A DNA stretch of 64,000 nt from Candidatus Woesearchaeota archaeon (GTDB lineage Archaea; Nanobdellota; Nanobdellia; Pacearchaeales; GW2011-AR1), in NCBI GenBank assembly GCA_964412025.1, contig CAYPLY010000003.1:47659-111658 (forward strand). Reading direction: 5' to 3'. This document shows, in pieces, positions 21,702 to 53,352 of this stretch. The notes under the pieces are model-generated. The model was not told the origin of the DNA and ran no database searches. It saw nothing but the letters and a program-made list of their open reading frames with translations. A program made the translations under genes and the position numbers. The stretch's first letter is position 1, and the number at the start of each line of letters is the position of its first letter.

Positions 21702-21754
21702 ACAAAGATAAAGATTAAGTATTTTAAAAAGATATTCTAAAGGAAGATTAGTAA

Positions 21755-21807
21755 GGGCGGATGGAGAAACCAAGACACAAGTGTTCGGTTCTCTTATCTA
21801 ACCGAAC
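21755..21807. repeat. tRNA-His 3'-end-like fragment (gggcggatggag) plus hairpin
   Basis: The 12-nt match to the tRNA-His 3' end is followed by GTTCGGTT-n9-AACCGAAC. Confidence 0.4.
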
Positions 21808-22075
21808 CTAAAACAACAAAGCTGAATACAAAGAGAATTAAATCCACCAAAATTACAATTATTGGAAATTTCTTATTTTTATACATAAAAAAATGGATTA
21901 TTGAAAGAATAAATGTTAATGGTATTGAAATTAATATTATCCAAGCAAATGTTCTTATAAGAAGGTATGATGTAAAAAGAATAATAAAATGAATTATTGT
22001 AACAAGAAGCATAATTAAAAAAACAACTCTTAAAGCATACCAAATAAAACCCCTTTTATCCTCTTCCTGTTTCAT
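21794..22075 (-). CDS. Small membrane protein
   Basis: 93 aa with three hydrophobic helices. Confidence 0.35.
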   Translation of the reverse strand: MKQEEDKRGFIWYALRVVFLIMLLVTIIHFIILFTSYLLIRTFAWIILISIPLTFILSIIHFFMYKNKKFPIIVILVDLILFVFSFVVLGSVR

Positions 22076-22117: not shown

Positions 22118-22160
22118 AGGCGGATGGAGTAACCAGTTCAATGATGTTCGGGATGGTTAC
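22118..22160. repeat. Second tRNA-His 3'-end-like fragment (aggcggatggag) plus hairpin
   Basis: Related to 21755..21807 (ggcggatggag-[at]aacca...gttcgg). Followed by GTAACC-n20-GGTTAC. Confidence 0.4.
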
Positions 22161-22786
22161 CTTTTCTTTAGCACAAATGCTAAAATAACAAAACCGATTA
22201 TTATTGCAAATGCAATTATCGAACTTGCTAAAATTAAATGATTAGATTCCTTTTCTAAAGTAACCTCTCCAGTTGCTATTAACTTATTTCCTGGTGGAAT
22301 TTGAATATTTGTTGGTTTAGTTGTCTGGTTTATTTCTTCTTGTTCAACTTGATTTGAAATTTCTTCTAATGCTTCTTGGATTTGATATCTATCACGAGCA
22401 CTCCTCCCAGAATCAACTATAACGTTTATTCCTGTAGATTGTCTTAAATTTTTTCCAAATTCAAAATAATCGAAATCATCATAAGAATATAAGTTTGCTG
22501 TTTCTATTTGAGAATTCCTTATGTATTCATATAAATCGGAAAAATCTCCTGTTGTTCTTTTTAATTGAATAACAATTCCTTGTTTTCCAGAAGGAACAAG
22601 AGCATAGATTATACTTGCTTGGTTAAAGTTTTCAACCTCTCCTGCTTCAATAAAAAAACTATCACTATTAACTTCTTTTGTTATATAGAAAGAACCATAA
22701 GTACCATAAGCACCAACAAATATACTAAAGAATATTATAAATAAAAATAAAACAGATAACCTTAAACTTAATCTCATAAATTTCAT
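22157..22786 (-). CDS. Secreted protein with C-terminal transmembrane anchor
   Basis: Signal peptide, C-terminal hydrophobic helix, then KKR. Confidence 0.4.
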   Translation of the reverse strand: MKFMRLSLRLSVLFLFIIFFSIFVGAYGTYGSFYITKEVNSDSFFIEAGEVENFNQASIIYALVPSGKQGIVIQLKRTTGDFSDLYEYIRNSQIETANLYSYDDFDYFEFGKNLRQSTGINVIVDSGRSARDRYQIQEALEEISNQVEQEEINQTTKPTNIQIPPGNKLIATGEVTLEKESNHLILASSIIAFAIIIGFVILAFVLKKR

Positions 22787-22839
22787 AGTATCAAGTATTA
22801 TTTAAGTTTTAGCGTACTGAACAGAACATCATTGAACAG

Positions 22840-22911
22840 GGCGGATGGAGGGAATCGAACCCTCTCTATACGGACCACAACCGTATGTACTACCGTTATA
22901 CTACAACCGCC
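22840..22911 (-). tRNA. tRNA-His (anticodon GUG) with genomically encoded G-1
   Basis: Hand-folded cloverleaf: G-1 pairs with C73; 7-bp acceptor stem with one U-U mismatch; U8 and A9 present; 4-bp D stem; perfect 5-bp anticodon stem with loop UUGUGGU; T-loop TTCGATT. No CCA is encoded. Confidence 0.8.
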
Positions 22912-23003
22912 AAAATTTTGTGCGGTTATTGAAATGAACCTAAATCCACTCAAAACCACAACCTAAAATTATAAATCAGAAGACTTTTAATTCTTTTTGT
23001 TTA
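22896..23003. repeat. att repeat copy A (about 108 bp) covering the tRNA-His 5' end and upstream region
   Basis: Blocks ttatactacaaccgccaa and agacttttaattctttttgtttag, with a similar spacer (gcggttat...ccacaacctaaaa...ataaatcag), recur at 34100..34207 and partially at 34681..34767. Confidence 0.8.
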
Positions 23004-23160
23004 GTGTTTGATTTATCTTCCTATAAGTTGCTAACACCAAATTAAGAGTTTTCTTTGGATATTTCTTCCACTTTTCATATACTTGCAGTTCATTTAATCC
23101 AAATTCAATGGCATACATACACCAATCTTCTATATCTTTCTTTTTTATTTCCTTAACCAT
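22989..23160 (-). CDS. Small ORF (57 aa) overlapping the att repeat, possible excisionase-like or accessory protein
   Basis: Hand-translated as MVKEIKKKDIEDWCMYAIEFGLNELQVYEKWKKYPKKTLNLVLATYRKINQTLNKKN. Not in the ORF track because it is under 60 aa. Sits at the element edge opposite the integrase. Confidence 0.2.
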
Positions 23161-23224
23161 TTTAATTTATGTTATTGATAGATAGTCAATAAGGTTTTAA
23201 AAGATGAATGTAGGTTAAAACAAT

Positions 23225-24319
23225 ATGGTTGAGATTATTGATTTAAGCAAAGTTGAGAATAAGATTATTTTAGGTGATTGTATTGAGGAATTAAGGAAAT
23301 TTCCAGATGAATCAATAGACCTCATTTTTGCAGACCCACCCTATTTTATGCAAACAGAAGGTGAATTAATAAGACCAGAGGGCTCAAAGTTTGCAGGAGT
23401 AGAAGATGAATGGGATAAGTTTGACGGATATAAGGAATATGACAAATTCTGCTTTGAATGGTTAAAGGAATGTAGAAGAGTGTTAAAAAAGAATGGAACT
23501 ATCTGGGTAATTGGGGCCTTCCAGAATATCTATAGAATGGGTTATATTATGCAAAATTTAGGATATTGGATATTGAATGATGTTGTTTGGTCTAAACCAA
23601 ATGCTGTTCCTAATTTTGGAGGAACAAGATTTCAAAACTCTCACGAAACCATGTTATGGTGTGCTAAAGATAAGAACTCAAAATATACTTTCAATTATAA
23701 AACCATGAAGCATTTAAATGAAGATAAGCAAGATAAGAGTGTTTGGGATATTGGAATCTGTATAGGTAATGAAAGACTAAAAGGAGAAGACGGCAAAAAG
23801 ATGCATTCTACACAAAAGCCGGAGAAATTATTGTATAAAGTGATTTTATCTTCATCTAAACCCGGAGATTTAGTTTTAGACCCGTTTTTTGGAACAGGAA
23901 CGACCGGAGCAGTTGCAAAACTTCTTGGAAGGAAGTATATTGGAATTGAAAGAGATAAAAGTTATGTTTTAATGGCTAGAGAAAGAATAAGCAAAGTAAT
24001 TCCAGATGAAAACGAGATTACAAATTTAGAGTTAGAGGTTAAACCGCCCAAAGTGCCTATGGATGATTTAATTGAAAAAGGAATGTTAAAGGTTGGAGAG
24101 ACTTTATATGATAAAACAAAAAAGCATTCAGCAAAGATATTATTAAACGGACATCTAGATAACGGAAAAGATAAATTATCCATTCATAAAATGGCTGCAA
24201 AATATTCTAAAAAAGAAAATATGAATGGTTGGGATTTTTGGTATGTTGAAAAAGACGGAGAATTAAAAAGCATAAATCAGTTAAGATATGAATATATGAA
24301 TAAATTTATAACTAACTAA
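23225..24319 (+). CDS. Type II DNA N6-adenine methyltransferase, beta class
   Basis: Motif IV DPPY (LIFADPPYFMQTEG) precedes motif I FGTGTTGAVA; this circularly permuted order is typical of beta-class amino-MTases such as M.HinfI and M.RsrI. Confidence 0.85.
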   Translation: MVEIIDLSKVENKIILGDCIEELRKFPDESIDLIFADPPYFMQTEGELIRPEGSKFAGVEDEWDKFDGYKEYDKFCFEWLKECRRVLKKNGTIWVIGAFQNIYRMGYIMQNLGYWILNDVVWSKPNAVPNFGGTRFQNSHETMLWCAKDKNSKYTFNYKTMKHLNEDKQDKSVWDIGICIGNERLKGEDGKKMHSTQKPEKLLYKVILSSSKPGDLVLDPFFGTGTTGAVAKLLGRKYIGIERDKSYVLMARERISKVIPDENEITNLELEVKPPKVPMDDLIEKGMLKVGETLYDKTKKHSAKILLNGHLDNGKDKLSIHKMAAKYSKKENMNGWDFWYVEKDGELKSINQLRYEYMNKFITN

Positions 24320-24334
24320 AACTATTGTGATTCA

Positions 24335-25195
24335 ATGGAATATAAGAGGTTTAAAGAGATATTTAATGAATGTATTTTTGAAGAATCCAAAGCCATTCTT
24401 ATAGAAAAAATATCAAAATACCCTAATAGATATATTGGTTTATTTAGACCAACAAAACCAAAAGCAAAAATCTTGCAAAATCTACTTCAATCACATGAAA
24501 TTAGATTTGGAGAAGCATTTGAGGAAGTTATAGAAGAATACCTAAAGAATTCAGGATTTAATTTATTGCCAAAAAAATATTCTAATGAAGACAACCGCGC
24601 TCTAAATATTGACCAATGCTTCAAAGATGCTAAAAATGTCTTCTTTATAGAGCAAAAAGTAAGAGATGACCATGATTCAACAAAAAAAAGAGGGCAAATA
24701 GATAATTTTGTTAAAAAATTAGAGGTTATGATAAAAGAGCATGGAGAAAAGAAGATAATAGGAATCTTTTATTTTATTGACCCGGAAATAATCAAGAATA
24801 AGAAATATTATCAAGAAGAATTAAACAAGATGCAAAAGGATTATGGTGTAAAACTATACCTCTTTTATGGAAAAGAACTTTTTGAGTTCCTAAAGATTAC
24901 AAAGGTTTGGGATGAAATACTAAAATATCTAGAAGAATGGAAAAAAGATATTCCAGACCTACCAGAGACTAACTTTGATATTGATGCTCAAAGCAGTTTT
25001 GAGGAGATTAGGGATTTAAGCCCTGCAGTTTATAGAGACTTGTTTAAAGATGATGTAATTTTTAATGACATTGTATTAACAATCTTCCCGCAAAAGAAAA
25101 CATTAAAATTGCTCTTAGAATATTTTAAATCTAAATCTAAAGAAATGGTTATTTATTCGACTCTCGCAAAAGAATTAGAGAGAAAATTGGGTTAA
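24335..25195 (+). CDS. Putative type II restriction endonuclease partner of the adjacent methyltransferase
   Basis: Starts 16 nt after the methyltransferase stop on the same strand. Possible PD-(D/E)xK core (NIDQ...FFIEQKVRD). No other motif recognised. Confidence 0.4.
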   Translation: MEYKRFKEIFNECIFEESKAILIEKISKYPNRYIGLFRPTKPKAKILQNLLQSHEIRFGEAFEEVIEEYLKNSGFNLLPKKYSNEDNRALNIDQCFKDAKNVFFIEQKVRDDHDSTKKRGQIDNFVKKLEVMIKEHGEKKIIGIFYFIDPEIIKNKKYYQEELNKMQKDYGVKLYLFYGKELFEFLKITKVWDEILKYLEEWKKDIPDLPETNFDIDAQSSFEEIRDLSPAVYRDLFKDDVIFNDIVLTIFPQKKTLKLLLEYFKSKSKEMVIYSTLAKELERKLG

Positions 25196-25309
25196 ACTTT
25201 TAGGAATGGTGTTTTTTCTTATCCTTTGAAGTAATCACAAGATAAATAATCCAAATTATAAAAGGGATACCTATCCCCAACCACCACCAGATAGAAATTC
25301 CCCAGAGGC

Positions 25310-25804
25310 TCATTTTTTTAATCCCTCTATATTGTTGTTTTTATTATTTTTTAATTCAGATAACCTTTGAAATAAGCGAAGCAATTCTATTTGAACAGAT
25401 ATTTTAAACGTATGAAGCGGATTTTCACCACCCATCTTTTCTCCGTCTTTTGCTGGGTCAATATTATCTATTTGCCAGTCCATAGGTGTTTTTAACATTA
25501 ATTGTTCTATTTTCTTATCATCAATATCTATCTGATGCGCATATGCATTCCTTATTTGCCTAAGTTTATTGAGAATATTATATTCTATCTCTGAGAAGAT
25601 TTTTGTTGCCTTCAATATCTTTAATTTTATATCTTCTGAATTTATTTTATCTAATTCTGTTCCTAATTTTATCCTTAGAAATTCATTTACTAAATATTCA
25701 GAAATGATACCTAAACTTATTATTGTTTTTCTTGTATCTTTACTTTTATCAATTTCAAGAAGCATTTCTACTATATCATTATGTATTTCTTCATCCGTTT
25801 TCAT
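25310..25804 (-). CDS. HEPN-domain protein (Abi-like)
   Basis: Rx4-6H motif in LRQIRNAYAHQ within a helical protein. It is the last gene of a five-gene operon. Confidence 0.5.
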   Translation of the reverse strand: MKTDEEIHNDIVEMLLEIDKSKDTRKTIISLGIISEYLVNEFLRIKLGTELDKINSEDIKLKILKATKIFSEIEYNILNKLRQIRNAYAHQIDIDDKKIEQLMLKTPMDWQIDNIDPAKDGEKMGGENPLHTFKISVQIELLRLFQRLSELKNNKNNNIEGLKK

Positions 25805-25806
25805 TT

Positions 25807-26613
25807 TTATTCATAAAAGATTTTATTTTTATTTTTATCCCACTCTTCATCACCAAAATCGATTAAACCCAATCTCTTTAATCTTGCTTTAATCCCGCCT
25901 TCTTGTCTTTGAAACAAGACTGCAATATCTTCAATAGGAATTCCTCTGCTAAAATGCTCTTTAAGTTTTGCTTCTTCTTCAGAACTCCATTCTTGATAAG
26001 CATGAGGGCTTTCTTTTTTTATTTCTGCAATTCTACTTGCTTCCTTTTCAAAATTTACCTTTCTCTCTTTATTACTCCTCTTTGATTTTCCTTTTTTATA
26101 CCACTGCCTTGCTATACTTTCAAATAAGTCGATAACTTCTTCATTTTCAATATTAAATTTAGTCTTTAGCCATTCTCTAAGGCCAACAATCTTCAATAAA
26201 TCTTCATTATCTAAATAAAAAATATGAAAAACTTCTCTTTCATTCAGACTAACAAAAAAGACTTCTGAATGCTTGTAAATATGCAAACTGCTTAAATCTT
26301 CTTTGTTTAAAATTCCCTTTCTTCTATATTTAATTTCCATAAGATTAACACAACCTCTCTTATCGATTATTGCAAAATCTGGTAACCTTCTAATATAATC
26401 AAGTTCTACATTATCCTCTGATTTCCTATCTATTCTAAAATCTCCACCACAAGTCTTGATGAATTTCTCTATCTGAATTAAAGGTGTTGCTGTATGTTCT
26501 TGACCTATTTTAATAACAAAGAAACCTAAATTGATAAATAACTCTTCAAAAAGCATTTCGGAAATTCTGCCTTTTATTTTGCTATTGACCCAATCTTCAA
26601 CGTCATTCTTCAT
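25807..26613 (-). CDS. PD-(D/E)xK nuclease-fold protein with C-terminal helical domain
   Basis: E...PDFAIID...NLMEIKYRR fits the restriction-endonuclease-like catalytic core. There is a 2-nt gap to the downstream HEPN gene. Confidence 0.4.
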   Translation of the reverse strand: MKNDVEDWVNSKIKGRISEMLFEELFINLGFFVIKIGQEHTATPLIQIEKFIKTCGGDFRIDRKSEDNVELDYIRRLPDFAIIDKRGCVNLMEIKYRRKGILNKEDLSSLHIYKHSEVFFVSLNEREVFHIFYLDNEDLLKIVGLREWLKTKFNIENEEVIDLFESIARQWYKKGKSKRSNKERKVNFEKEASRIAEIKKESPHAYQEWSSEEEAKLKEHFSRGIPIEDIAVLFQRQEGGIKARLKRLGLIDFGDEEWDKNKNKIFYE

Positions 26614-26651
26614 AAAATATCAAAGTGTTCTAAGATTTAAAGATTTGTATC

Positions 26652-26882
26652 TTAAGGTTTCAATATATACTTCCAAGATAAAAAAAGTAATAAAGCGAGT
26701 ATTATAAAAAGAATAATCTTATTTCTAATCAATCTTCTCTTTTCTCTTCTTTCTTCTTCTTTAATATAATGCTCTTCCCATGCTTTTTGAATTTCTTTTT
26801 CTTGTTCTTTTGTTAATTTAGGATTATGTCCCTTATTATAAACAAACTTATGCAAACCGCCCGTGTTTACTTCTTCTGTCAT
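26652..26882 (-). CDS. Small tail-anchored membrane protein
   Basis: 76 aa. Charged N-terminus, then a C-terminal hydrophobic helix (IILFIILALLLFLSW). Confidence 0.35.
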   Translation of the reverse strand: MTEEVNTGGLHKFVYNKGHNPKLTKEQEKEIQKAWEEHYIKEEERREKRRLIRNKIILFIILALLLFLSWKYILKP

Positions 26883-26883
26883 T

Positions 26884-27561
26884 TTATCTAAATATTTTTC
26901 CTTCTATATTTAATCTCCAAACAATATGAACAAGAATTGTTTGAACAATTCCAATCAAAACTAACCCCCATATAAAATAAGTAGTAATATCTCCTACTAA
27001 AAATAAAATAAATTCCATAGTTATAATTTTTTCAATTAGATAAAAAGACAAAAAGAATAAACAACATTGAACAATAACCCAAAATAAAAAGCGCTTATCT
27101 ACTATCCATTTATGATTTAATACTAAAATTTGCATTATCTTACTACAAACTTCTATAATAAATCCGCTTAGGACAACAAACCATATTATTTTCATATCTG
27201 GAACATATATTTTTCTTATAAAGTATGAAACAATTATTCCAATTGTAAACGCAATAAACCAAATAAGATAATCTTTCACAAAACCCTTACTTCTACTTTT
27301 TTCCTTGTGGTGATGAGGAGAGGAATGTTTTTCCCGTTTCTTAAATATCTCTTTTCTAAAAAGGAATAAAACAATAGCCAGAGGTATTATAACCAGAGTA
27401 ATAATCTTTGATGTTTTATAAGAAAAACCTAATGAAGCAAGTAAAATAAAAATAAGCATTCCTACAAAAACAAGTGCAAGGAATTTTAAAGCAATCCATA
27501 ATGTTTCATCTTGTTGGTGTTCTTTCCAAGTTTTTACTATTACTACTTTCTCATTTCCCAT
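26884..27561 (-). CDS. Polytopic membrane protein
   Basis: 225 aa with five or six hydrophobic helices and a His/Lys-rich loop (HSSPHHHKEKSRSK). Confidence 0.45.
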   Translation of the reverse strand: MGNEKVVIVKTWKEHQQDETLWIALKFLALVFVGMLIFILLASLGFSYKTSKIITLVIIPLAIVLFLFRKEIFKKREKHSSPHHHKEKSRSKGFVKDYLIWFIAFTIGIIVSYFIRKIYVPDMKIIWFVVLSGFIIEVCSKIMQILVLNHKWIVDKRFLFWVIVQCCLFFLSFYLIEKIITMEFILFLVGDITTYFIWGLVLIGIVQTILVHIVWRLNIEGKIFR

Positions 27562-27963
27562 TTAAATATCCCAGAGATTTTTTCTTTTTGTATTTCCACC
27601 AAATAAATTAAAAGAATTATCTTGTCTTCGAATACTCTGCCTTGATTTTTTCTTATCTAATTCTCTTGCTTTATCCTCTTTATGTCTTTGAGAATGACAA
27701 TTTGCACAAATTGCTCTTAAGTTATCTGTTGTGCTCTTTCCCCCTTTGCTCACTTCTTTTTTATGGTCGTAGTGAGTAGATAAAGGATTTAGAGGTTTTT
27801 TACATATAGCGCATTTTCCATTCTGCCTTGAAAATACAACATCTTTTTGACTTCTTCCGATAGATTGTCTTTTGAATTTAGCATTTGAATTAGAACCCAC
27901 AGAACCAAAAGCAATTTTGTTCAAGTTGGTTTCAATCCTATTCCCAAAGATGTCCTTAGCCAT
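27562..27963 (-). CDS. HNH endonuclease
   Basis: CAICKK...HYDHKKEVSKGG...NLRAICANCHSQRH is a classic His-Me finger with Zn-binding cysteines. First gene of the operon. Confidence 0.8.
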   Translation of the reverse strand: MAKDIFGNRIETNLNKIAFGSVGSNSNAKFKRQSIGRSQKDVVFSRQNGKCAICKKPLNPLSTHYDHKKEVSKGGKSTTDNLRAICANCHSQRHKEDKARELDKKKSRQSIRRQDNSFNLFGGNTKRKNLWDI

Positions 27964-28464
27964 AATAAATAGAAATAAATGAATTTTATAAACATTGTTA
28001 ATTGTTTACAAATCAACCAATTAATGAACTGCTAAAAACGGGGGGTATAGAACACTAAAGAAAAATAGTGATTAAATGAACGGGGTTAAAAACGTCCGTT
28101 TTTAATTTTGGTATCAAATCACGACAGAATTAAAACCCTATCTCTTTATACTATTCTTTAAAGTTGTCGTAGTATATCTAAAACACGACATAACGCCATG
28201 CTCTTTTAATCTCATCATCAAAGAGTTTCTTTGAAATGTCCGTTTCATTATCAAGTTCTGTTTCTTCCTCTTCTTTCTTCTCTCGCTTTCTAACTTTCTT
28301 TTCTTTCAACTTTTTAATATATTCAGTTATTATTCCTTCTCTCATTTTTCTTTCTCTCTCTTAAAATTTCCTGAAAACATTGATAACAAAATTTTCCACC
28401 AAGAGCCCAAAAAAAATTATTACATTTTGAACAACAAATTTTTTTTAATTTTCTACCGCTCATT

Positions 28465-28677
28465 TTATTTGTAAATTATCTCCCGCCATTTGTTTAATTC
28501 TGCTTCCTGTTTCATCTCTTTTTGTCGATGCTCTGTGATTAACCCGTCAACAAATTTACTCACTTCTCCTTTCGCATGCCTTGATTTAAGATAAATATAA
28601 TTGTCTTGTGAAACACATATTGAAAATATTTTCTTTTTGGTGAGTGCATGAGCAATGATAGTTCTAATTTTTTTCAT
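28465..28677 (-). CDS. Hypothetical small protein
   Basis: 70 aa. Start overlaps the stop of the upstream ORF by 4 nt. Confidence 0.3.
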   Translation of the reverse strand: MKKIRTIIAHALTKKKIFSICVSQDNYIYLKSRHAKGEVSKFVDGLITEHRQKEMKQEAELNKWREIIYK

Positions 28678-28898
28678 CTCACAAACCTCCTATAAGTAAT
28701 AGGGTATAACACATTTAGAGAGGCTGTGGTCTCCGTTTTCAAAGGAAATGCCTTTGGATGCCTTGAGGTTGGGGATAATTCCATCTCCCCAGAGTAATTA
28801 CTTAAACTTACGCAACCATTTTCACTTATTTTACATGTAGAACCTATGTTAACCCATTGTCTGCCTGTAAAATCCAAAAAATTATAAGAAATTATCAT
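28674..28898 (-). CDS. Hypothetical small protein
   Basis: 74 aa. Translationally coupled on both sides. Confidence 0.3.
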   Translation of the reverse strand: MIISYNFLDFTGRQWVNIGSTCKISENGCVSLSNYSGEMELSPTSRHPKAFPLKTETTASLNVLYPITYRRFVR

Positions 28899-29398
28899 TG
28901 ACTTTCCCTCACCGGTTCAAATTTACTTAGCAATACCTTGAAACCATAACATTTCTTCCAATGCCCACACCATTCAATAGCAATTAGGTGATTTCCTGTT
29001 AAAGAATAATCAACACAACCGAGATATTCTAAAGGAACATACTTTCTTATGAATAATTTTTTGAAAGTTCTTCTTTTTTCTTCATCCAAATTTGAAATTG
29101 GAAGATTGTGAATGTGTAAATGTGGAGACTTTCCTTCATGGTCCCAAACTTCAAAGGAGATATTTGCTTTTAATAGGTTTATACCAGTGAAGTTTATTCC
29201 TTCCCATGCTTTGTTCTGGTCATCTGTATCAAATTCAATAACTATTTCATCATTTAGAATTTGTCTTAGGTTGTATTCTGGATTAAACTCTTCATAATCA
29301 ATCCATGCGGTCTTTCCAATCGCAATTTTATAATTTTGTTTCATTTTGTATTTGTCCAGCAGTTCTTTTCTCTTTTTTTCAAGGTATTTGTTATCCAT
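28895..29398 (-). CDS. Archaeo-eukaryotic primase-like primase-polymerase (PrimPol) domain protein
   Basis: EFDTDD (DxD), GKSPHLHIHN (sGxxxHxH-like) and VDYSLTGNHLIAIEW resemble AEP motifs I-III. The longest ORF starts at 29443 inside a tandem repeat; the Met at 29398 is the more likely start. Confidence 0.4.
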   Translation of the reverse strand: MDNKYLEKKRKELLDKYKMKQNYKIAIGKTAWIDYEEFNPEYNLRQILNDEIVIEFDTDDQNKAWEGINFTGINLLKANISFEVWDHEGKSPHLHIHNLPISNLDEEKRRTFKKLFIRKYVPLEYLGCVDYSLTGNHLIAIEWCGHWKKCYGFKVLLSKFEPVRESQ

Positions 29399-29497
29399 CT
29401 TAGTTAGTTTAGTTAGTTTAGTTAGTCCAATTAAACTAATCAAACTTCAGGGTGAGTTAGTTTAGTAGTTTATTATTCTATAGAATAAACTATTAAA
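29399..29497. repeat. Tandem tagttagtt-type repeats (iteron-like), candidate replication origin of the element
   Basis: cttagttagtttagttagtttagttagtcc ... gagttagtttagtagttt lies between the PrimPol-like gene and the helicase-like gene. Confidence 0.45.
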
Positions 29498-30856
29498 CTA
29501 AACCCCACCACCTTGATTTAAACTATAAACCCCCCGAATTGTTTTAGTTAGTATTCCTCTCTCTTCCAGAACCTTTAAAGCATTAAAGAAAGAGTTTTTG
29601 GGTTCTTTCTTAAAATCTTCTCTTGCTTTTTTTGTAGTAAAAGTTTCTAAATTTTCTTCTTTAATCCAAATCAATATCTTTTCAGCAATCTTTTCCTCTT
29701 TTGTTTGTGGAACGTAGACTACAGAACTAAACTTGATGAATTCTCCTTCCTTTGCTTCAATTTTTATTTGTAATGGTTCAATTTCTCGCGCATTTCTGCA
29801 TTTTAATTGCTTTAAAATTATATTATTTCCATGTTTTTCACACTTTAAGATAAAAGAAACATAGTTCGGCATATCACTTGAACCTCTTATATCATCCATT
29901 TCATCTCCAGAGTTTCCTTTCTTGTCATGGTGAATTAGAAGAATTGTTAGTTCATACTTGTCAACCAATGGTTGCAGAACGTCAATAAAGAACTTTGAAA
30001 CTTTGTCCGCACTATCTTCCTCAAAGGAGATAACTCTTCTGTAAGTATCTATAATTAGGAGTTTAGGTTTAATCTGGTCCACTATTTTCTCTAATGCGAT
30101 ATAATCTTCAACCTTATCGAGTTTTAATGGCTTAAATATAAAAGAGATGTCTAAATCTTCTTGTCTTCCTAAGCCGTTTTTAATCAAGTCTTTTCTTTCT
30201 TTGATGATTTGAAAGCCGTTTTCTCTATCTACATAAAGAACAATACTCTTTTCTGTTTGATATTTGTTAAATACTGGAAGCCCGAGGCTTACACACGTGC
30301 TAAAAAGTAAAGAAATAAAAGTTTTGAAAGAACCTCTTTTTCCTGTGAGAATTCCAATAGAACGTGCAGGAATTAAACCTTTTGCAATCCAGCCGATTTC
30401 TTTCTCCTTGTAGTTTTTCAAGTCTTTTTCCCAAACAAACTCTAAATCATTGCTTTCTTCTTCAACTTTATTGAAAAGATGAACTAATTCGGGTTTATTT
30501 TCTTTGGACCAATTAACCACCTCTCCAATATTGAAATTTTTTAATTCCCCTTTGTTCACTTTTTTAATCCAACCGAGCAAACCTCCAACCTTCCAACCTT
30601 GAGAAGCATATTTCTTCTTGATTGCCTCAATGTCAAGTTTATTTTGAACAATGTAAACAGCAAAGTTCTTTTCAAGGATTTTATTTAGTTGTCCTTCTGG
30701 AAGTTTTTCATTTAAGAAGATTTCAAAAAAGGAATTTATTCCTTCTGTTTGATTTGAATTAAAACCACTTTGAAAATTTATTTGTAGTTGTTCAGATTTT
30801 TTTAGTTCTTCATTAAATTCTTCCCAAAGGTCTAAAGGAATTTCTTGCTCATGCAT
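29498..30856 (-). CDS. RecA-fold AAA_25-like ATPase (replicative helicase or RepA-like)
   Basis: Walker A GILTGKRGSFKTF and a Walker B-like LLIIDTY...LLIHHDKKG, as in the plasmid/phage primase-associated AAA_25 family. Confidence 0.55.
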   Translation of the reverse strand: MHEQEIPLDLWEEFNEELKKSEQLQINFQSGFNSNQTEGINSFFEIFLNEKLPEGQLNKILEKNFAVYIVQNKLDIEAIKKKYASQGWKVGGLLGWIKKVNKGELKNFNIGEVVNWSKENKPELVHLFNKVEEESNDLEFVWEKDLKNYKEKEIGWIAKGLIPARSIGILTGKRGSFKTFISLLFSTCVSLGLPVFNKYQTEKSIVLYVDRENGFQIIKERKDLIKNGLGRQEDLDISFIFKPLKLDKVEDYIALEKIVDQIKPKLLIIDTYRRVISFEEDSADKVSKFFIDVLQPLVDKYELTILLIHHDKKGNSGDEMDDIRGSSDMPNYVSFILKCEKHGNNIILKQLKCRNAREIEPLQIKIEAKEGEFIKFSSVVYVPQTKEEKIAEKILIWIKEENLETFTTKKAREDFKKEPKNSFFNALKVLEERGILTKTIRGVYSLNQGGGV

Positions 30857-31107
30857 TTCCTCTCCTCCTTTGTTTTAAAATAATCTTTATTCAAAGTTAT
30901 GATATACCCTTTTTCATTAAACGGACTTTTATCATTATGACAATGCGCTATTCTATGCCCCTCTCCCAGTCCATGAAAATGATATTTTTTACAGAAATCA
31001 CAATAAAACTTCATTGCTTCATCAAAAGGGAGGTCTGTTCTCTCTTCGCATAAAATTACTGGAATATTATTTTCATATCCGAGTATTATTGTATTTTTTG
31101 AAGGCAT
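30832..31107 (-). CDS. Small Cys/His zinc-binding protein
   Basis: CDFCKKYHFHGLGEGHRIAHCHN cluster. Overlaps the helicase gene start. Confidence 0.3.
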   Translation of the reverse strand: MPSKNTIILGYENNIPVILCEERTDLPFDEAMKFYCDFCKKYHFHGLGEGHRIAHCHNDKSPFNEKGYIITLNKDYFKTKEERKCMSKKFL

Positions 31108-31287
31108 TTTAATATCCCTCCTTTATAGTTTGAATATCTTTTTTTCCAAGACTAACTCTTTTTCCAAACTTATCTTTTATTTGAAAGAAGAAATTATCTT
31201 CATCTAAAACAACACCTTCATAAACAAAATTATTTGATAGAATTATTACAACCTTTTTTCCAACCAACTCACCCATTTTAAAAAAAA

Positions 31288-31434
31288 TTATTCAGAGACC
31301 TCTTTTAGTTTTAAAATAACAATCATCTTTAGATAGTGAGTTGGTTTTAGTCCATGCTCAAGCGATATTTTCTTTAATAATTCATATTCCGCGTCGGTAA
31401 GGTGAACTCGAACCTCATTTAATCTGTTTTTCAT
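31288..31434 (-). CDS. Ribbon-helix-helix (CopG/MobC-like) DNA-binding protein
   Basis: MKNRLNEVRVHLTDAEYELLKKISLEHGLKPTHYLKMIV has the RHH beta-strand plus two helices. The longest ORF extends to 31512. Confidence 0.4.
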   Translation of the reverse strand: MKNRLNEVRVHLTDAEYELLKKISLEHGLKPTHYLKMIVILKLKEVSE

Positions 31435-31548
31435 AACATCTGGCCGGTAATTTCTCTTTAAAAAATTATATGCCCACAAGAAGCAAAAAAAGCATTTATA
31501 AAATTCAATCACAATAATGTTTAAAATCTAAATTGGGTTTAGTTTTCT

Positions 31549-32589
31549 ATGAAGATTGAAAATATAGATAGTCCAGAAGGACAGGAGTTGATTGACGATA
31601 TATTTACAATATTTGAAAATGAAAGGTTCAGAGAACTAAAAGAGGGTGTTAAAAAAAATGAAGAGTTAAAAAATGCAGAAATTCTAAATAAATTGTATAA
31701 TAAGAATTTAGCAAATGCAGATTATTTTAAGAGTATAATAAAATATACCGTAAATAGCACATCTTGTTCTTATTTGAGTTTTGATTTCTTCTTAAGACAA
31801 AAAGATATTAAAATAGGGTTTGAAGAATTGAGTAAGACTGCACATATGGACGGAGGATATAATACAAATTGGATTAAAGCATATTATAGAATTTATTATC
31901 TTGTAGATAATAATTTTTTTACGAAACAAGAATTGAGAGAAATATTACGATACCTTTTGTGGATACACCAAATTTTTATTAAAAAGATAGCAAAAACATT
32001 TGTTGTTAAAGATACATACTATACCCCCACTCCAGACCAGATATTTAGAGAAAATCTTCAGGAATTATATTATGAATGTGAGAAATTGATTAATTTTAAG
32101 CAGATGGAAATTTTGATTAAAGAAGTGGGAAAAGATATTGATAAAGAAGAGTTTGACCAAGTTATTAATTTGTTAGAAAATACTACTCTTGATAAAGATT
32201 TTAAAGAGGGTTTATTAAAATTGCAAAAATTATACTACGATTCTCAGGATAAAATTGATTTTGCAAAGAATGCTTCAAGCATAAGACCTCTCTTCTCTGC
32301 ACTAATTAAAGATATTGCAATAGACATATCTAAAAAAAATGGAACTACCTTAAGAGAGAATATGCAAGATGAGCAATATAAAGAATATTTGAAAGAATTA
32401 AATATTCTTGGACCTGGAGAAATAGAAATGATTAATGGCCTTTATCAAATGAATAGTAATTATGCTAATCATAAATTTAAGACAGACAAAGATTACTTTA
32501 GAGTTTTATTTAATATGTGTCTTTCAATCGTTGATTTAATTTTAGTAAATTATAATTTTATCATTAAAGAGAAAGATAAGAATGAATAA
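31549..32589 (+). CDS. Hypothetical protein (element-encoded)
   Basis: 346 aa helical protein with no recognisable motif. Confidence 0.35.
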   Translation: MKIENIDSPEGQELIDDIFTIFENERFRELKEGVKKNEELKNAEILNKLYNKNLANADYFKSIIKYTVNSTSCSYLSFDFFLRQKDIKIGFEELSKTAHMDGGYNTNWIKAYYRIYYLVDNNFFTKQELREILRYLLWIHQIFIKKIAKTFVVKDTYYTPTPDQIFRENLQELYYECEKLINFKQMEILIKEVGKDIDKEEFDQVINLLENTTLDKDFKEGLLKLQKLYYDSQDKIDFAKNASSIRPLFSALIKDIAIDISKKNGTTLRENMQDEQYKEYLKELNILGPGEIEMINGLYQMNSNYANHKFKTDKDYFRVLFNMCLSIVDLILVNYNFIIKEKDKNE

Positions 32590-32894
32590 ACACAAAAATA
32601 TGTAATTCATTTTTACAAATTTATAAAAACATATATATTGTAAATTTATCTTTGTTTTTTCACGGTTTCAGAAATTTTTGTTTTTGGTCGGAGAATAAAA
32701 TTATAAGACTTTTCATCTTCACAGATTAATCCAATTACTTTTTGATTAACAATAAATTCATAATCATCAATTTTTATTTTTCCTTTCATTTTTTTGCTTT
32801 TGCCCTCTCTAATAATGAATTTCAAGATAAAGTGGAAATTGTTTCTTCATTGTATAAAAATTATATAAAGACATTTTATAAATGTCGATTAGTT

Positions 32895-34040
32895 TTAGAA
32901 AGTCTTTTGTTGTCCAGATATTTTAAGAGTTAAAGGTAATTGTTCAGTAGAAAACTCTCTTTGAATAAGAACTGCAATTATTTTATCCATGTCTTTTCTT
33001 AGTTCTGCATTCTCTTCTCTTATTTTTTGCATTTGTTCTTCTATCTGGTGTTTCTTCTCTGGTGTAATATCCTTGAAATCATATACTTGTTTTCTCAAGA
33101 TTTTAGTTTTATCCTCTTTACTCATATGAGAATAAACTTTGTCAAACATCTTCTCAGAATGTCTCATGAAACTTATTGCATTATCCTTGCTCATAACATT
33201 TTGTTTGACTAATCTCTGCAATTCTGTTCCTCTCGTGTGCCTTAACAAATAGTTATATTTTGGTTTTCCTAAAACTTTTAATGTTATCTCGTTAAATCTA
33301 TCATTAACTCGCTTTGAAATATACTCGTTTGTATTTTGCGGAGAAGGAAAAACCCACTTTGAAACTATCCCTTCACTTTTTTGTTGCTCTCTGAGTTTTC
33401 TCAAATACTTAGTTGCTAAGTTCAAAGGAATTTCTTCAGTGTGTTCTGTTGCATCTCGGTTCTTCTTAGATGAAACTTTGATATTGCAAAACTCTTCATC
33501 TTCTTCAAAAAAAACATCACTCCACTTTAAACGCCTACATTCACCAGTTCGCAAACCTCCTTCGTATTGGGTGATGAAAAAACATTGATAAAACAAACTC
33601 TTTTCTGCTATCATCAGTTTTTCAATATCTTCTTTCTTTAGAATATCCTCTGAGGTTATCTCTTTCTTTCTCTGAGCATTTGAATTGAAATGTAAGTCTT
33701 CAAGATTGTTAAAGAGTTCACTCCAATTCTTAAACTTCCATTTAATAAACTGCTGAAGATATGCTTTAATTTTATTCTTCGTAAAATCTGCAAATGTAGA
33801 GAGTTTTAACTCTTTCAAGAAATATCTTAAATCTTCTAAATCAAAATCATTAATCTCTTTTCCAGTAACCACTCTAAACCTTAAGATTTCTCGAACTGCT
33901 TCCTTTGTTCTTTCTTCACTTGCAGAAATAAGCAGATAGTCTTTAAACCGCTCAAGAACCTCTTTCTCTTCCCTTGAGAGATGTCTATAGAGTTTCTCTG
34001 AGGTTTTCTCCTTGCTGAATTCAAAAATGGGTTTTCTCAT
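32895..34040 (-). CDS. Tyrosine recombinase / integrase
   Basis: The C-terminal catalytic domain has R (TGECRRLKWSDV), HxxR (LLRHTRGTE) and the Tyr region (KVYSHMS). The N-terminus beyond the Met at 34040 runs into the att repeat and is probably not translated. Confidence 0.8.
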   Translation of the reverse strand: MRKPIFEFSKEKTSEKLYRHLSREEKEVLERFKDYLLISASEERTKEAVREILRFRVVTGKEINDFDLEDLRYFLKELKLSTFADFTKNKIKAYLQQFIKWKFKNWSELFNNLEDLHFNSNAQRKKEITSEDILKKEDIEKLMIAEKSLFYQCFFITQYEGGLRTGECRRLKWSDVFFEEDEEFCNIKVSSKKNRDATEHTEEIPLNLATKYLRKLREQQKSEGIVSKWVFPSPQNTNEYISKRVNDRFNEITLKVLGKPKYNYLLRHTRGTELQRLVKQNVMSKDNAISFMRHSEKMFDKVYSHMSKEDKTKILRKQVYDFKDITPEKKHQIEEQMQKIREENAELRKDMDKIIAVLIQREFSTEQLPLTLKISGQQKTF

Positions 34041-34099
34041 GTCCGGCCCAGCAAGTAACCCTTTAAAAGCATATCTATAACCGCACAATAAAACTACAA

Positions 34100-34207
34100 T
34101 TATACTACAACCGCCAATATTAATGACGCGGTTATAAAAGCAGACTAATCTGCTCAAACCACAACCTAAAAGCATAAATCAGTAGACTTTTAATTCTTTT
34201 TGTTTAG
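34100..34207. repeat. att repeat copy B
   Basis: Same two conserved blocks and a similar spacer as copy A. Confidence 0.8.
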
Positions 34208-34661
34208 CTTTTTCTTCTTTATTTACTTCATTTTCCCACTCAATATCTCCCCTAATAATCTCCTCTAAGAAATCATATAAATTATCACAAGCAAGTTTAT
34301 AATCTTCACAATCGGGGTTTACCTCAAATATATTACACCATCCATTTTTATCCTTAGAAGACAAATTTAGAGATAGAATAAAGTCATCATATCTGCTAAT
34401 AACTAAAAAACTCTTATCTCTTTCAAGACTTCTAATAAAGTTTGTTTCTTCAATAATTTCCTTAATAGAAAGAATATCAAAATCAGAATTAAACAAGTTT
34501 AATTTATAATTAGTAAGATAAATCATAAATTCTTCTGGAAGAGTTATCTTAAGTTTATTTTCTAACAAATCAATATCCCCTTTTGATATTGAATTAGAAT
34601 AAGATATTTTGTTGGGATACAATTTAATTAGTTTATCAAATTCTTGTTTAATATATTTCAT
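34179..34661 (-). CDS. SMI1/KNR4 (SUKH-1)-like immunity protein
   Basis: 160 aa. The LPEEFMIYLTNY motif and overall SUKH-like pattern match this family. It is the only gene between att copies B and C. Confidence 0.4.
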   Translation of the reverse strand: MKYIKQEFDKLIKLYPNKISYSNSISKGDIDLLENKLKITLPEEFMIYLTNYKLNLFNSDFDILSIKEIIEETNFIRSLERDKSFLVISRYDDFILSLNLSSKDKNGWCNIFEVNPDCEDYKLACDNLYDFLEEIIRGDIEWENEVNKEEKAKQKELKVY

Positions 34662-34680
34662 TTTCTAATCCTCCACAATA

Positions 34681-34767
34681 ATACTACAACCGCCAATATA
34701 TGTTCCGATTATGTATTTTTCAGAACTAGAATTACTAAATTAGAAGACTTTTAATTCTTTTTGTTTA
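34681..34767. repeat. att repeat copy C (partial)
   Basis: atactacaaccgccaatat ... agacttttaattctttttgttta; the spacer diverges from copies A and B. Confidence 0.7.
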
Positions 34768-53211: not shown

Positions 53212-53352
53212 GCGTTCCTAGTTTAATGGTAGAATATCTCGTTGCCAATGTAAGGGACCAAGGTCCCTTGACAATCAACCTCCTTGAGAAAGAAGAAGGA
53301 AGAAGATAAAAGCAAAAACGAGGTGGCCCGGGTCCGATTCCCGGGGAGCGCA
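53212..53352 (+). tRNA. tRNA-Gly (anticodon GCC) with an intron of about 70 nt at the canonical 37/38 position
   Basis: Acceptor GCGTTCC/GGAGCGC with one G-U pair. Anticodon stem TCTCG/CGAGG, loop TTGCCA then intron. T-arm CCGGG-TCCGATT-CCCGG. Discriminator A. The exons join at about 53247/53318. Confidence 0.7.

What the first reader, a model, noticed from the sequence alone, without database searches (positions are those of the whole stretch)
22840..34767. Integrated element of about 11 kb at the 5' end and promoter of tRNA-His, bounded by roughly 108-bp bipartite direct repeats, with a third repeat copy downstream
Three direct-repeat copies share two exact blocks, ttatactacaaccgccaa and agacttttaattctttttgttta(g). 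They lie at 22896-23003, 34100-34207 and 34681-34767. The first block is the 5' end of the minus-strand tRNA-His(GUG), from G-1 to about nt 15; the rest of the repeat is the region upstream of the tRNA. The duplicated segment is therefore the tRNA promoter plus 5' end, not the usual tRNA 3' end. An intact tyrosine integrase (32895..34040) abuts copy B. The integrase being intact fits a pNOB8-like integration mode, not an SSV-like one. The A and B spacers are similar but not identical, as expected if one derives from attP and the other from the native locus.
Basis: seen in the sequence. Interest (0 to 1): 0.7.

Follow-up and report, generated by a model that had tools for sequence, protein, structure and literature searches.

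The report
Mobile element in tRNA-His 5' end
An 11.2-kb plasmid-like mobile element has inserted into the front (5') end of the histidine tRNA gene of a tiny DPANN archaeon, replacing the gene's first 15 bases and its upstream control region, which is a rare way for such elements to use tRNA genes.

Summary
Window 22896-34117 holds an 11,204-bp integrative element in a Pacearchaeota-like (DPANN) chromosome, inserted at the 5' end of the minus-strand tRNA-His(GUG). A 96-97% identical contig (L003) is a precise empty site. It shows that crossover lies within an 18-bp core, TTGGCGGTTGTAGTATAA (2 nt upstream, G-1, tRNA nt 1-15). The rest of the "108-bp repeat" (83% identity) is not a duplication made by integration. 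It is homology between the element's own left arm and the left-arm relic of an older element. Copy C is a still older relic. The integrase (32895..34040) is intact and starts at 34040. Its 87 homologues, the named ones DPANN, nearly all carry a tRNA 5' fragment 50-80 nt upstream of the start codon. Rejoining the att halves restores a perfect 12-bp inverted repeat around the core. Three more integrated copies at tRNA-His and four circular free forms were found. The element supplies a promoter-like box (block 2) to the rebuilt tRNA; this role is inferred. 5'-half tRNA targeting is known but rare (pTN3-like suicidal integrases). This is a non-suicidal family with a different att layout: a new variant of a known kind.

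The parts
22839..22911 (-). tRNA-His(GUG), including the encoded G-1 at 22911. This is the recombinant gene: nt 16 to the 3' end are host DNA; nt -1 to 15 lie in the shared core.
   Evidence: ARAGORN, Rfam 59.4 bits; 8-bp acceptor stem with G-1:C73 read
22896..22913 (-). attR core: TTGGCGGTTGTAGTATAA on the tRNA strand, 18 bp, identical to the attL core
   Evidence: In the L003 empty site the sequence left of this block matches copy B and the sequence right of it matches copy A.
22918..22929 (-). IR-L (ATAACCGCACAA), the element-borne inverted-repeat arm, 6 nt upstream of G-1
   Evidence: a perfect 12-bp IR with 34077-34088 in the reconstructed attP; 0 of 500 shuffles reach it
22981..23003 (-). 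block 2, copy A: TAAACAAAAAGAATTAAAAGTCT, a BRE/TATA-like box in the element's left arm. It overlaps the stop codon of the 57-aa ORF.
22987..23160 (-). 57-aa ORF, the last gene of the element; unknown function
23225..24319 (+). N6-adenine DNA methyltransferase (CcrM/HinfI-type, with RAMA domain)
   Evidence: PF01555, 7e-69; best NCBIfam hit is the CcrM model, 1.6e-150, 500.9 bits, below its curated equivalog cut-off of 830 bits
24335..25195 (+). HpyAIV-family type II restriction endonuclease. With the methyltransferase it forms a type II R-M module (target GANTC from my own knowledge of HinfI/HpyAIV/CcrM).
   Evidence: NF045832, 2.5e-74, above cut-off
25310..25804 (-). 164-aa protein with weak, sub-threshold HEPN/DUF4145-like hits
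27562..27963 (-). HNH endonuclease
   Evidence: PF01844, 9.7e-11
29498..30856 (-). 452-aa AAA_25 (RepA/DnaB-like) ATPase, the probable replication helicase of the element
   Evidence: PF13481, 1.8e-24; primase/helicase PHROGs
32895..34040 (-). intact tyrosine integrase, 381 aa; conserved R164, K193, Y264-x-x-R267, H294, Y303
34061..34068 (-). TATA-like TTTTAAAG 21-28 nt before the int ATG. Homologues have TTTATAAA/TTTAAAA at the same place.
   Evidence: by eye; function inferred
34077..34088 (-). IR-R (TTGTGCGGTTAT), partner of IR-L; stays next to int in attL
34100..34117 (-). attL core: displaced 5' fragment of tRNA-His (G-1 to nt 15, plus 2 nt upstream)
34118..34207 (-). B left arm: pre-existing upstream region of tRNA-His (block 2 at 34184-34206, spacer with IR-L-like TATAACCGC). 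It matches the arm that precedes the intact tRNA in L003.
34179..34661 (-). 160-aa SUKH/SMI1-KNR4 protein gene between copies B and C; probable cargo remnant of an older element
34679..34767 (-). copy C: degenerate core (34679-34696, 1 mismatch) plus block 2 (34745-34767); oldest att relic. Its L003 and L043 orthologues keep an AACCGACAT-type IR-L.
22119..22850 (-). separate 721-bp mini-element on the 3' side of the same tRNA (not part of the 11-kb element). It has 11-nt direct repeats of the tRNA 3' end (22119-22129, 22840-22850) and 17-nt terminal inverted repeats (22133-22149, 22824-22840), and carries the 209-aa gene.

Best explanation
An 11,204-bp integrative, plasmid-like element sits in the chromosome of a Pacearchaeota-like DPANN archaeon. 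Its genes include an integrase, an AAA_25 helicase, a type II R-M pair, an HNH nuclease and unknowns; no virion genes were recognised. Its own non-partitioned tyrosine integrase recombined an attP, lying just upstream of int, with an 18-bp core at the 5' end of tRNA-His (2 nt upstream, G-1, nt 1-15). In the circular form attP reads: promoter-like box (block 2), about 48 nt (about 66 nt from block 2 to the core), IR-L, 6 nt, tRNA 5' core, 11 nt, IR-R, int TATA, int. Integration splits this site. IR-R and int stay with the displaced 5' tRNA fragment and the old upstream region (attL, copy B). Block 2 and IR-L are joined to the body of the tRNA (attR, copy A). The working tRNA-His therefore now has element DNA for its first 15 nt and its whole upstream region. 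Repeated integration at the same core, followed by internal decay, has left older left-arm relics (copy B arm with the SUKH gene, then copy C) stacked upstream. Shown: the insertion, its exact junctions, the core, the intact integrase, the IR restored in attP, and recurrence in related genomes. Inferred: that block 2 is the promoter that keeps tRNA-His expressed, and that the IR arms are accessory integrase-binding sites specific to attP.
For: Empty site: L003 is 96-97% identical on both sides and lacks the element. Its single repeat unit equals copy B on the left of the core and copy A/tRNA on the right. Uniqueness: both blocks occur 3 times against about 0 expected. Integrase: PF00589 3.3e-11, PHROG integrase 3.3e-19, nearest solved structure XerA 4a8e. 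The 34040 start is shared by 27 homologues. Family pattern: about 28 of 33 loci with enough upstream sequence have a tRNA 5' fragment (His-type or other tRNAs) upstream of int, usually 50-80 nt before the ATG. IR: the reconstructed attP of the window, L006, L041 and L046 each gives a perfect 10-12-bp IR. The three tested by shuffling (window, L006, L041) were reached by 0-4 of 500 shuffles; L046 was read by eye. The IR is absent from the attL of L006 and L041. Free contigs L007/8, L010, L014, L016, L023, L029, L032, L033 and L035 have the same layout with different arm sequences. Recurrence: integrated copies at the tRNA-His 5' end occur in L006 (4.2 kb), L041 (10.7 kb) and L046 (10.75 kb). 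L006 and L046 are 99.3-99.9% identical in the flanks but hold different elements, with the breakpoints at or within a few nt of the core. Free forms: circular contigs L008, L015, L020 and L023, 10-14 kb, with terminal overlaps of 123-127 nt. Promoter inference: block 2 (AAAAAGAATTAAAAGT) resembles the box at about -41 to -25 of tRNA-Val (GAAAAAGCTTAAAAGTG). It lies about -50 to -29 before tRNA-His in sites without an element arm (L001; attL of L006 and L046).
Against: No excised circle or attP junction of this particular element was seen: viral contigs held no hit to the junction or to block 2. Activity is therefore inferred from intact parts. In the element arms block 2 lies about 70-90 nt from the tRNA, too far for a canonical archaeal TATA unless the tRNA is made with a leader of about 50 nt. 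No transcription data exist. Exact conservation of the 21-nt core of block 2 across genomes only 77-85% identical is more than a promoter usually shows. It could be an arm-type recombination site, or be kept uniform by element traffic. The IR arms are 23-43 nt apart, too far for classical core-type sites, so their role is unproven. No integrated copy with both junctions was recovered for the non-His members (L045).
Confidence: 0.88

Rival explanations
1. The repeats are an ordinary conserved promoter/intergenic motif of this genome, and the 11-kb segment is native chromosome rather than an insertion.
For: Block 2 looks like a BRE/TATA box and is also present upstream of tRNA-His in relatives that have no element there (L001).
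Against: Both blocks occur only at this locus in 64 kb. A 96-97% identical strain lacks the segment precisely between the repeats. The segment carries an integrase, a helicase and an R-M module. More distant relatives place the U32 peptidase 0.7-6 kb from tRNA-His with none of these genes.
Confidence: 0.01
2. It is an SSV/pTN3-type 'suicidal' integration: attP lies inside the integrase ORF and the gene is split on integration. The 426-aa ORF that overlaps copy B would be the true integrase.
For: The mechanical ORF (and the NCBI protein P0001) runs from 34175 across the attL core. pTN3-like integrases are the known archaeal users of tRNA 5' halves (PMC8371274).
Against: The extra 45 residues are a translation of the tRNA fragment (..GGCSI..) and are absent from 24 of the 27 aligned proteins; only P0002 and P0038 have comparable att-region extensions. 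All 27 align on the conserved M-R/K-K..F start at 34040. The whole 381-aa protein, with all catalytic residues, lies on one side of the core. A profile search hits XerA and no SSV1 integrase chain.
Confidence: 0.02
3. The element entered by homologous (RadA-type) recombination across the roughly 108 bp of 83% similarity, not by integrase action at the 18-bp core.
For: The homologous stretch is unusually long for an att site. Block 2 gives a second exact patch of 23 nt.
Against: In the window, L006, L041 and L046 the junction maps to the same tRNA core. In L006 and L046 the attL left arm shares only block 2 with the element arm, yet the breakpoint is still at or within a few nt of the core. The IR halves are partitioned exactly as a core crossover predicts.
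Confidence: 0.04
4. The units upstream (SUKH gene + copy B arm; copy C; the arrays in L043) are not decayed elements. They are small cassettes moved in trans by family integrases, which makes the tRNA-His 5' flank an integron-like capture platform.
For: L043/L044 have 3 cores and 4 block-2 copies separating units of 0.4-1.7 kb, with no integrase. L006 and L046 have a one-gene unit between two block-2 copies. Each unit keeps both flanking cores. An integrase-less mini-element with the same DR + terminal-IR design sits on the 3' side of the tRNA and is 100% identical in a genome that is 77% identical elsewhere.
Against: The units lack an IR-R next to their upstream core, so their circles would not have a full attP. 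The copy C unit is orthologous between genomes about 85% identical, which suggests old, static relics. No identical cassette was seen at two different places.
Confidence: 0.12

Closest known systems
pTN3 / TKV4-type elements of Thermococcales (pTN3-like, SSV-family integrases)
   Same: Archaeal tyrosine integrases whose att site is the 5' part of a tRNA gene. The rebuilt tRNA is cut off from its original promoter and depends on element sequence (PMC8371274 section 18; PMC5495485 S2 Fig legend).
   Different: pTN3's att is 41 bp (tRNA-Leu nt 2-44, including the anticodon), lies inside the integrase ORF, and integration splits the gene. Here the core is 18 bp (-3 to +15), lies about 60 nt upstream of an intact int, and is flanked by element-specific inverted repeats. 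The left arm carries a separate promoter-like box. No sequence link to SSV-type integrases was detected.
pNOB8-type (non-partitioning) archaeal integrases
   Same: The integrase gene stays intact on integration, attP is next to int, and the protein is closer to Xer-like recombinases.
   Different: Described members use the 3' parts of tRNA genes (PMC8371274). A sequence relationship to the pNOB8 integrase was not tested here.
[quoted passage not shown] Caldiarchaeum subterraneum
   Same: [quoted passage not shown]
   Different: They are single cases in other lineages. Here a whole integrase family (87 homologues) shows the 5' fragment next to int. The Zhao & Williams paper could not be read here.
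Tandem arrays of islands at tRNA genes / 'gene capture' by decayed integrated elements in Sulfolobus (She et al. 2001, recalled from memory; array formation noted in PMC6563490)
   Same: The same att is re-used, leaving stacked att relics and captured genes (copies B and C here; the arrays in L043).
   Different: The arrays here build up on the 5' side of the tRNA, and each relic carries a promoter-like box.

Membership tests
Tyrosine recombinase / phage integrase superfamily | Catalytic domain with the R..K..(H/Y/A)xxR..(H/W)..Y signature | tested here: met
   PF00589 3.3e-11 above cut-off. R164, K193, Y264, R267, H294 and Y303 are invariant in 27 homologues. XerA 4a8e is hit at 6.5e-06.
Site-specific integrative element in a tRNA gene | Insertion bounded by direct repeats, one of which is part of an intact tRNA gene, with an empty site in a relative | tested here: met
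   18-bp cores at 22896-22913 and 34100-34117; empty site in L003
Williams (2002) tRNA sublocation classes (anticodon loop, T loop, 3' end) | The crossover lies in the anticodon loop, the T loop or the 3' end, and the element supplies the 3' part of the tRNA | tested here: not met
   The shared core is -3 to +15 (acceptor 5' strand and D-stem 5' strand), and the element supplies the 5' part. Classes as summarised in PMC8371274.
SSV-type (type I, partitioning or 'suicidal') archaeal integrases, including pTN3-like | attP lies inside the int ORF, and the gene is split into int(N) and int(C) on integration | tested here: not met
   The whole int (32895-34040) lies on one side of the core, and the start is fixed by the alignment.
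pTN3-like integrases | attB is the 5' half of a tRNA gene | tested here: met
   The 5' end is used. However, the att length, its position relative to int and the protein family differ, so this is a functional resemblance, not membership.
pNOB8-type (type II, non-partitioning) archaeal integrases | The int gene remains intact in the integrated state | tested here: met
pNOB8-type (type II) archaeal integrases | Sequence or phylogenetic affiliation with the pNOB8 integrase | not tested
Only the XerA-like affinity was seen.
Integron | A chromosomal intI next to attI, with a cassette array bounded by attC sites | tested here: not met
   The integrase belongs to the mobile element itself and is absent from arrays such as L043. 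The repeat units are tRNA 5' cores with left arms, not attC hairpins.
Provirus | Capsid, packaging or other virion genes | tested here: inconclusive
   No virion-related Pfam or PHROG hit among the 10 larger of the element's 19 ORFs that were scanned, but most of those had no hit at all and the small ORFs were not scanned.

The most novel reading that the evidence does not exclude
Integrases found mostly in DPANN-type (Pacearchaeota/Nanoarchaeota) sequences form a family dedicated to the 5' acceptor/D-arm end of tRNA genes. Their attP would be a portable 'promoter - IR - tRNA 5' end - IR' module, so each integration swaps the promoter of an essential tRNA. Repeated use would turn the tRNA-His 5' flank into an integron-like platform, where single-gene cassettes (and integrase-less mini-elements such as the 721-bp one on the 3' side) are captured and moved in trans.
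Probability: 0.15. Interest if true: 0.75.

Novelty: new variant of a known kind. Interest (0 to 1): 0.55.

Why it matters
tRNA genes are the classic landing sites for integrative elements, but almost always at their 3' parts, so the host promoter is untouched. The 2021 review of archaeal tyrosine recombinases calls pTN3-like suicidal integrases 'unique in archaea' in using the 5' half. This locus documents a second, unrelated and non-suicidal integrase family that does so. It comes with an exact empty site, four integrated copies and several circular forms, in hosts (Pacearchaeota, DPANN) whose mobile elements are almost undescribed. It gives a defined 18-bp core, a testable attP layout with co-varying inverted repeats, and a case where an element must take over expression of the tRNA-His gene it lands in (whether the genome has another copy was not checked). 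It also shows how serial integration and decay remodels the neighbourhood of a tRNA gene in very small genomes. It is a variation on known biology, not a new principle.

Tried and rejected
(1) The 426-aa ORF as the true integrase was rejected by the homologue alignment. (2) I looked for a free form of this exact element. Scans of viral contigs for the attL/attP junction and for block 2 gave nothing. Exact-protein look-ups of int (381 and 426 aa) and of the helicase found no other contig. (3) I tested whether the left-arm spacer is a degenerate tRNA-His. It shares GGTTGTGGT with the anticodon arm, and the right arm resembles the core. Local alignments were not significant: 194-197 of 2000 shuffles for the left arms and 358 of 2000 for the right arm. 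(4) I guessed from motifs seen by eye that the 182-aa ORF (28895..29443) is a small AEP primase. It had no Pfam, PHROG or NCBIfam hit and no similarity to the Prim-Pol protein of the L046 element, so the guess was dropped. (5) A search for an integrated non-His family member with both junctions failed. L045 has the 5' fragment next to int but no second copy or matching tRNA within 10 kb. (6) The genome-contig scan returned only 2 loci and the first alignment was too diverse to use. (7) The organism name could not be read from cluster look-ups. Host lineage rests on named homologues of the U32 peptidase and the integrase. (8) Zhao & Williams 2002 and Williams 2002 are not held in the library.


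Full report
OBSERVATION. ARAGORN and Rfam place tRNA-His(GUG) on the minus strand at 22839/22840-22910. Reading the sequence gives an encoded G-1 at 22911 and an 8-bp acceptor stem. Block 2, AGACTTTTAATTCTTTTTGTTTA, lies at 22981-23003, 34184-34206 and 34745-34767. Block 1, TTATACTACAACCGCCAA, lies at 22896-22913 and 34100-34117, and at 34679-34696 with one mismatch. Block 1 covers 2 nt upstream, G-1 and tRNA nt 1-15.

GENE CONTENT BETWEEN A AND B. On the tRNA strand, reading from copy B towards copy A, the named genes are:
- a tyrosine integrase (32895..34040; PF00589 3.3e-11; PHROG integrase 3.3e-19);
- an AAA_25 RepA/DnaB-like ATPase (29498..30856; 1.8e-24);
- an HNH nuclease (27562..27963);
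- a weak, sub-threshold HEPN-like protein (25310..25804).
On the other strand lies a type II R-M pair. It consists of an HpyAIV-family endonuclease (NF045832, 2.5e-74, above its cut-off) and a CcrM/HinfI-type N6-adenine methyltransferase (PF01555, 7e-69). The remaining ORFs have no family hit, and no virion protein was recognised. The flanks are housekeeping genes: thioredoxin reductase, PEP synthase and U32 peptidase. The host is a Pacearchaeota/Nanoarchaeota (DPANN) archaeon. Named homologues of the U32 peptidase (82-84% identity) and of the integrase carry those labels, and the syntenic relative L001 encodes diphthamide synthase.

IT IS AN INSERTION, AND THE JUNCTIONS ARE EXACT. An exact-protein look-up of the 160-aa SUKH protein returned L003, a 1,783-bp contig from run SRR27676563. 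L003 positions 1-1367 match window 35449-34093 at 97%. L003 positions 1253-1783 match window 23004-22473 at 96%. L003 therefore reads DUF4190 gene - copy C - SUKH gene - one repeat unit - intact tRNA-His - 209-aa gene, with no 11.2-kb segment. In the alignment, the L003 unit equals copy B to the left of TTGGCGGTTGTAGTATAA and equals copy A/tRNA to the right of it. Both strand exchanges therefore lie inside this 18-bp core. Copy B is attL (old upstream region + core + element right arm + int). Copy A is attR (element left arm + core + tRNA body). The repeat period, and so the element length, is 11,204 bp.

WHAT THE '108-bp REPEAT' REALLY IS. Only the 18-bp core is shared because of recombination. 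The other roughly 90 nt are similar because the element's left arm (A) and the arm that preceded the tRNA before integration (B) are homologous. Arm B is itself of element type. It has block 2 about 66 nt from the core and an IR-L-like TATAACCGC. Sites with no element arm differ: in L001 and in the attL of L006 and L046, block 2 lies only 28-32 nt from the tRNA and there is no IR-L. Copy C is older still. Its orthologues in L003 and in L043 (about 85% identical genome) keep an AACCGACAT-type IR-L. L043/L044 carry three cores and four block-2 copies that separate small units (Trx/DsbD genes, a 103-aa ORF, a 112-aa ORF), with no integrase. The 5' flank of tRNA-His is thus a hotspot where elements integrate repeatedly and decay, leaving left-arm relics and captured genes.

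THE INTEGRASE AND ITS FAMILY. The mechanical ORF extends to 34175 across attL, and the NCBI protein P0001 is annotated that way (426 aa). All 27 aligned proteins share the conserved start corresponding to 34040 (M-R/K-K..F), and only P0002 and P0038 carry comparable att-region extensions. The extra residues (..GGCSI..) are simply the translated tRNA fragment. The gene is therefore intact and entirely on one side of the core, so this is not an SSV/pTN3-type partitioning integrase. R164, K193, Y264-x-x-R267, H294 and Y303 are invariant. The only solved relative found by a profile search is Pyrococcus XerA. There are 87 homologues at 31-73% identity; the few that carry names are labelled Pacearchaeota or Nanoarchaeota.

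A FAMILY-WIDE att LAYOUT. I fetched 37 loci that encode homologues and read the 170 nt upstream of each int. About 28 of the 33 loci with enough sequence carry a tRNA 5' fragment (acceptor 5' strand plus D arm), usually 50-80 nt before the ATG. The His-type fragments are GGCGGTTGTAGTATAAC, GGCGGTTGTGGTCTAAC, GGCGATTGTGGTCTAAC and GACGGTCGTAGTCCAAC. Fragments of other tRNAs are GAGCCCATAGCTCAGG, GAGCCTGTAGCTCGG, GATCCCGTAGCTCGG and GCCCCTATAGTACGGGTGGGTAG. A TTTATAAA/TTTAAAA box follows, about 25-35 nt before the ATG.

Many of these sites also have an inverted repeat that brackets the fragment. Examples are AACCGACAT/ATGTCGGTT, AGTCTTGGACA/TGTCCAAGACT, TTGTGGGGGTA/TACCCCCACAA and TTACGGAGTTTTA/TAAAACTCCGTAA. 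The decisive test uses the integrated copies. Joining the element-side halves (attR left arm + core + attL right arm) restores a perfect IR in every case:
- window: ATAACCGCACAA/TTGTGCGGTTAT, 12 bp, 0 of 500 shuffles;
- L006: AAACCGACAC/GTGTCGGTTT, 4 of 500;
- L041: ATAACCGCACA/TGTGCGGTTAT, 1 of 500;
- L046: GAACTGAACA/TGTTCAGTTC (read by eye, not shuffle-tested).
The attL of L006 and of L041 alone shows only background 5-6-mers. Three elements that target the same core carry three different IR sequences. The arms therefore follow the element and its integrase, not the target. As single-stranded DNA, the reconstructed attP folds into the expected hairpin (-11.9 kcal/mol, z = -4.0).

My preferred reading is that the arms are attP-only accessory binding sites for the integrase. 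They are 23-43 nt apart, too far for classical core-type sites, and attB does not need them. This is an inference. A structural role, such as a hairpin in DNA or in the int leader RNA, is not excluded.

RECURRENCE AND MOBILITY. Integrated copies at the tRNA-His 5' end, with block 2 and the core at both ends, occur in three more genomes:
- L006, 4.2 kb;
- L041, 10.7 kb;
- L046, 10.75 kb, on an 801-kb contig.
L006 and L046 are 99.3-99.9% identical in both flanks but hold different elements, and the similarity breaks at or within a few nt of the core. The window element and the L046 element share the R-M module at 86.5% nucleotide identity, while their integrase genes align at only about 68% over 674 nt. 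The elements are therefore mosaic. Four contigs that carry family integrases have 123-127-nt terminal overlaps and so are circular, at 10-14 kb: L008, L015, L020 and L023. L007 is a circular permutation of L008. L008 and L023 show the full IR - core - IR site.

PROMOTER REPLACEMENT (INFERRED). After integration the upstream region of the working tRNA-His comes from the element. Block 2 (…AAAAAGAATTAAAAGT…) resembles the purine-rich + TATA-like box upstream of tRNA-Val (GAAAAAGCTTAAAAGTG, ending 24 nt before the tRNA). It also resembles the box upstream of the intron-containing tRNA at 53212 (AAAAATCTTTAAATA). In sites without an element arm, block 2 sits at a comparable distance from tRNA-His. 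All four elements carry it in their left arm, 60-72 nt from the core. The other His-targeting subfamily has an analogous AAAGATTTTAATAGC box at the same place. The simplest reading is that the element brings a copy of the tRNA promoter to keep tRNA-His expressed. Two caveats apply. In the arms the box is too far from the tRNA for a short leader. Also, the 21-nt core of block 2 is identical in every host examined (one substitution in the L006 attR copy), across genomes only 77-85% identical, which is stronger conservation than expected for a promoter. It could instead be an arm-type recombination site, or be kept uniform because the copies found in hosts are mostly recent deposits from elements.

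COMPARISON WITH WHAT IS KNOWN. Use of the 5'-distal part of a tRNA gene is documented but rare. [quoted passage not shown] For pTN3 the shared site is 41 bp, the int gene is disrupted, and the tRNA is 'separated from its original promoter' (PMC5495485, S2 Fig legend). Krupovic et al. list the few other cases (Zhao & Williams 2002; CalSub-E1) and'-distal recombination 'considerably less frequent' (PMC6563490). The present family shares the outcome, namely 5' replacement and promoter takeover. It differs in four ways: int is not partitioned, the core is short (-3 to +15), the core lies upstream of int and is bracketed by element-specific inverted repeats, and a separate promoter-like box is carried. 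It also falls outside the three tRNA sublocations of Williams (anticodon loop, T loop, 3' end), as summarised in PMC8371274. Searches of the held literature for DPANN or Pacearchaeota integrases found no description of it. I rate it a new variant of a known kind.

VERDICT. Confidence that this is an integrase-mediated insertion at the tRNA-His 5' core is about 0.9. Confidence is about 0.6 that block 2 acts as the replacement promoter, and about 0.5 that the IR arms are accessory integrase sites. Interest is moderate (0.55): a clean, well-delimited example of a rare integration mode, extended to a whole integrase family in poorly known hosts, but mechanistically within known biology.

Noticed in passing
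window 22119-22850: A 721-bp integrase-less mini-element sits on the 3' side of the same tRNA-His. It has 11-nt direct repeats of the tRNA 3' end (GGCGGATGGAG at 22119-22129 and 22840-22850) and 17-nt terminal inverted repeats (22133-22149 / 22824-22840). It carries only the 209-aa secreted/membrane protein gene. The segment is 100% identical over 750 bp in L001/L002, a genome only about 77% identical elsewhere. It is absent after the tRNA in L041, L043 and L044. Its DR + terminal-IR design mirrors that of the 11-kb element.
   Followed up: partly
L043/L044 4029-6860 (GCA_029560575.1 JAKQKP010000101.1; Ga0116242_10000423): A relative about 85% identical has an array of 3 tRNA-His 5' cores and 4 block-2 copies upstream of tRNA-His, with no integrase. 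The copies separate small units (thioredoxin/DsbD genes, a 103-aa ORF, a 112-aa ORF). This could be serial att relics or cassette-like capture.
   Followed up: partly
L006 versus L046 (MTKZ01064819.1 versus GCA_040768045.1 JAXGNJ010000001.1): Two strains with 99.3-99.9% identical flanks carry different elements (4.2 kb and 10.75 kb) at the same tRNA-His 5' core.
   Followed up: yes
window 23225-25195 and L046 17008-19237: The HpyAIV/HinfI-type R-M module (286-aa endonuclease + 364-aa methyltransferase) is 86.5% identical in nucleotides between two elements whose integrase genes align at only about 68% over 674 nt. This points to module exchange between elements.
   Followed up: partly
window 53212-53352 (+): Rfam finds a 141-nt tRNA, presumably intron-containing, that ARAGORN did not report.
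   Followed up: no
window 34041-34175; proteins P0001 and P0002: Public gene calls extend the integrase N-terminus across attL. The extra residues (..GGCSI..) are translated tRNA-His DNA, so this is an annotation artefact that could be mistaken for an SSV-type att inside int.
   Followed up: yes
L005 (CAZNBO010000035.1): A contig carrying a family integrase with a His-type tRNA 5' fragment is labelled 'Candidatus Saccharibacteria'. Given the otherwise archaeal (DPANN) distribution, this is probably a binning error.
   Followed up: no
window 20769-22075 versus L001 10738-12063: The region between the 209-aa gene and thioredoxin reductase varies: two ORFs of 334 and 93 aa with no family hit in the window, and a 441-aa NosD/beta-helix protein in L001/L002.
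   Followed up: no
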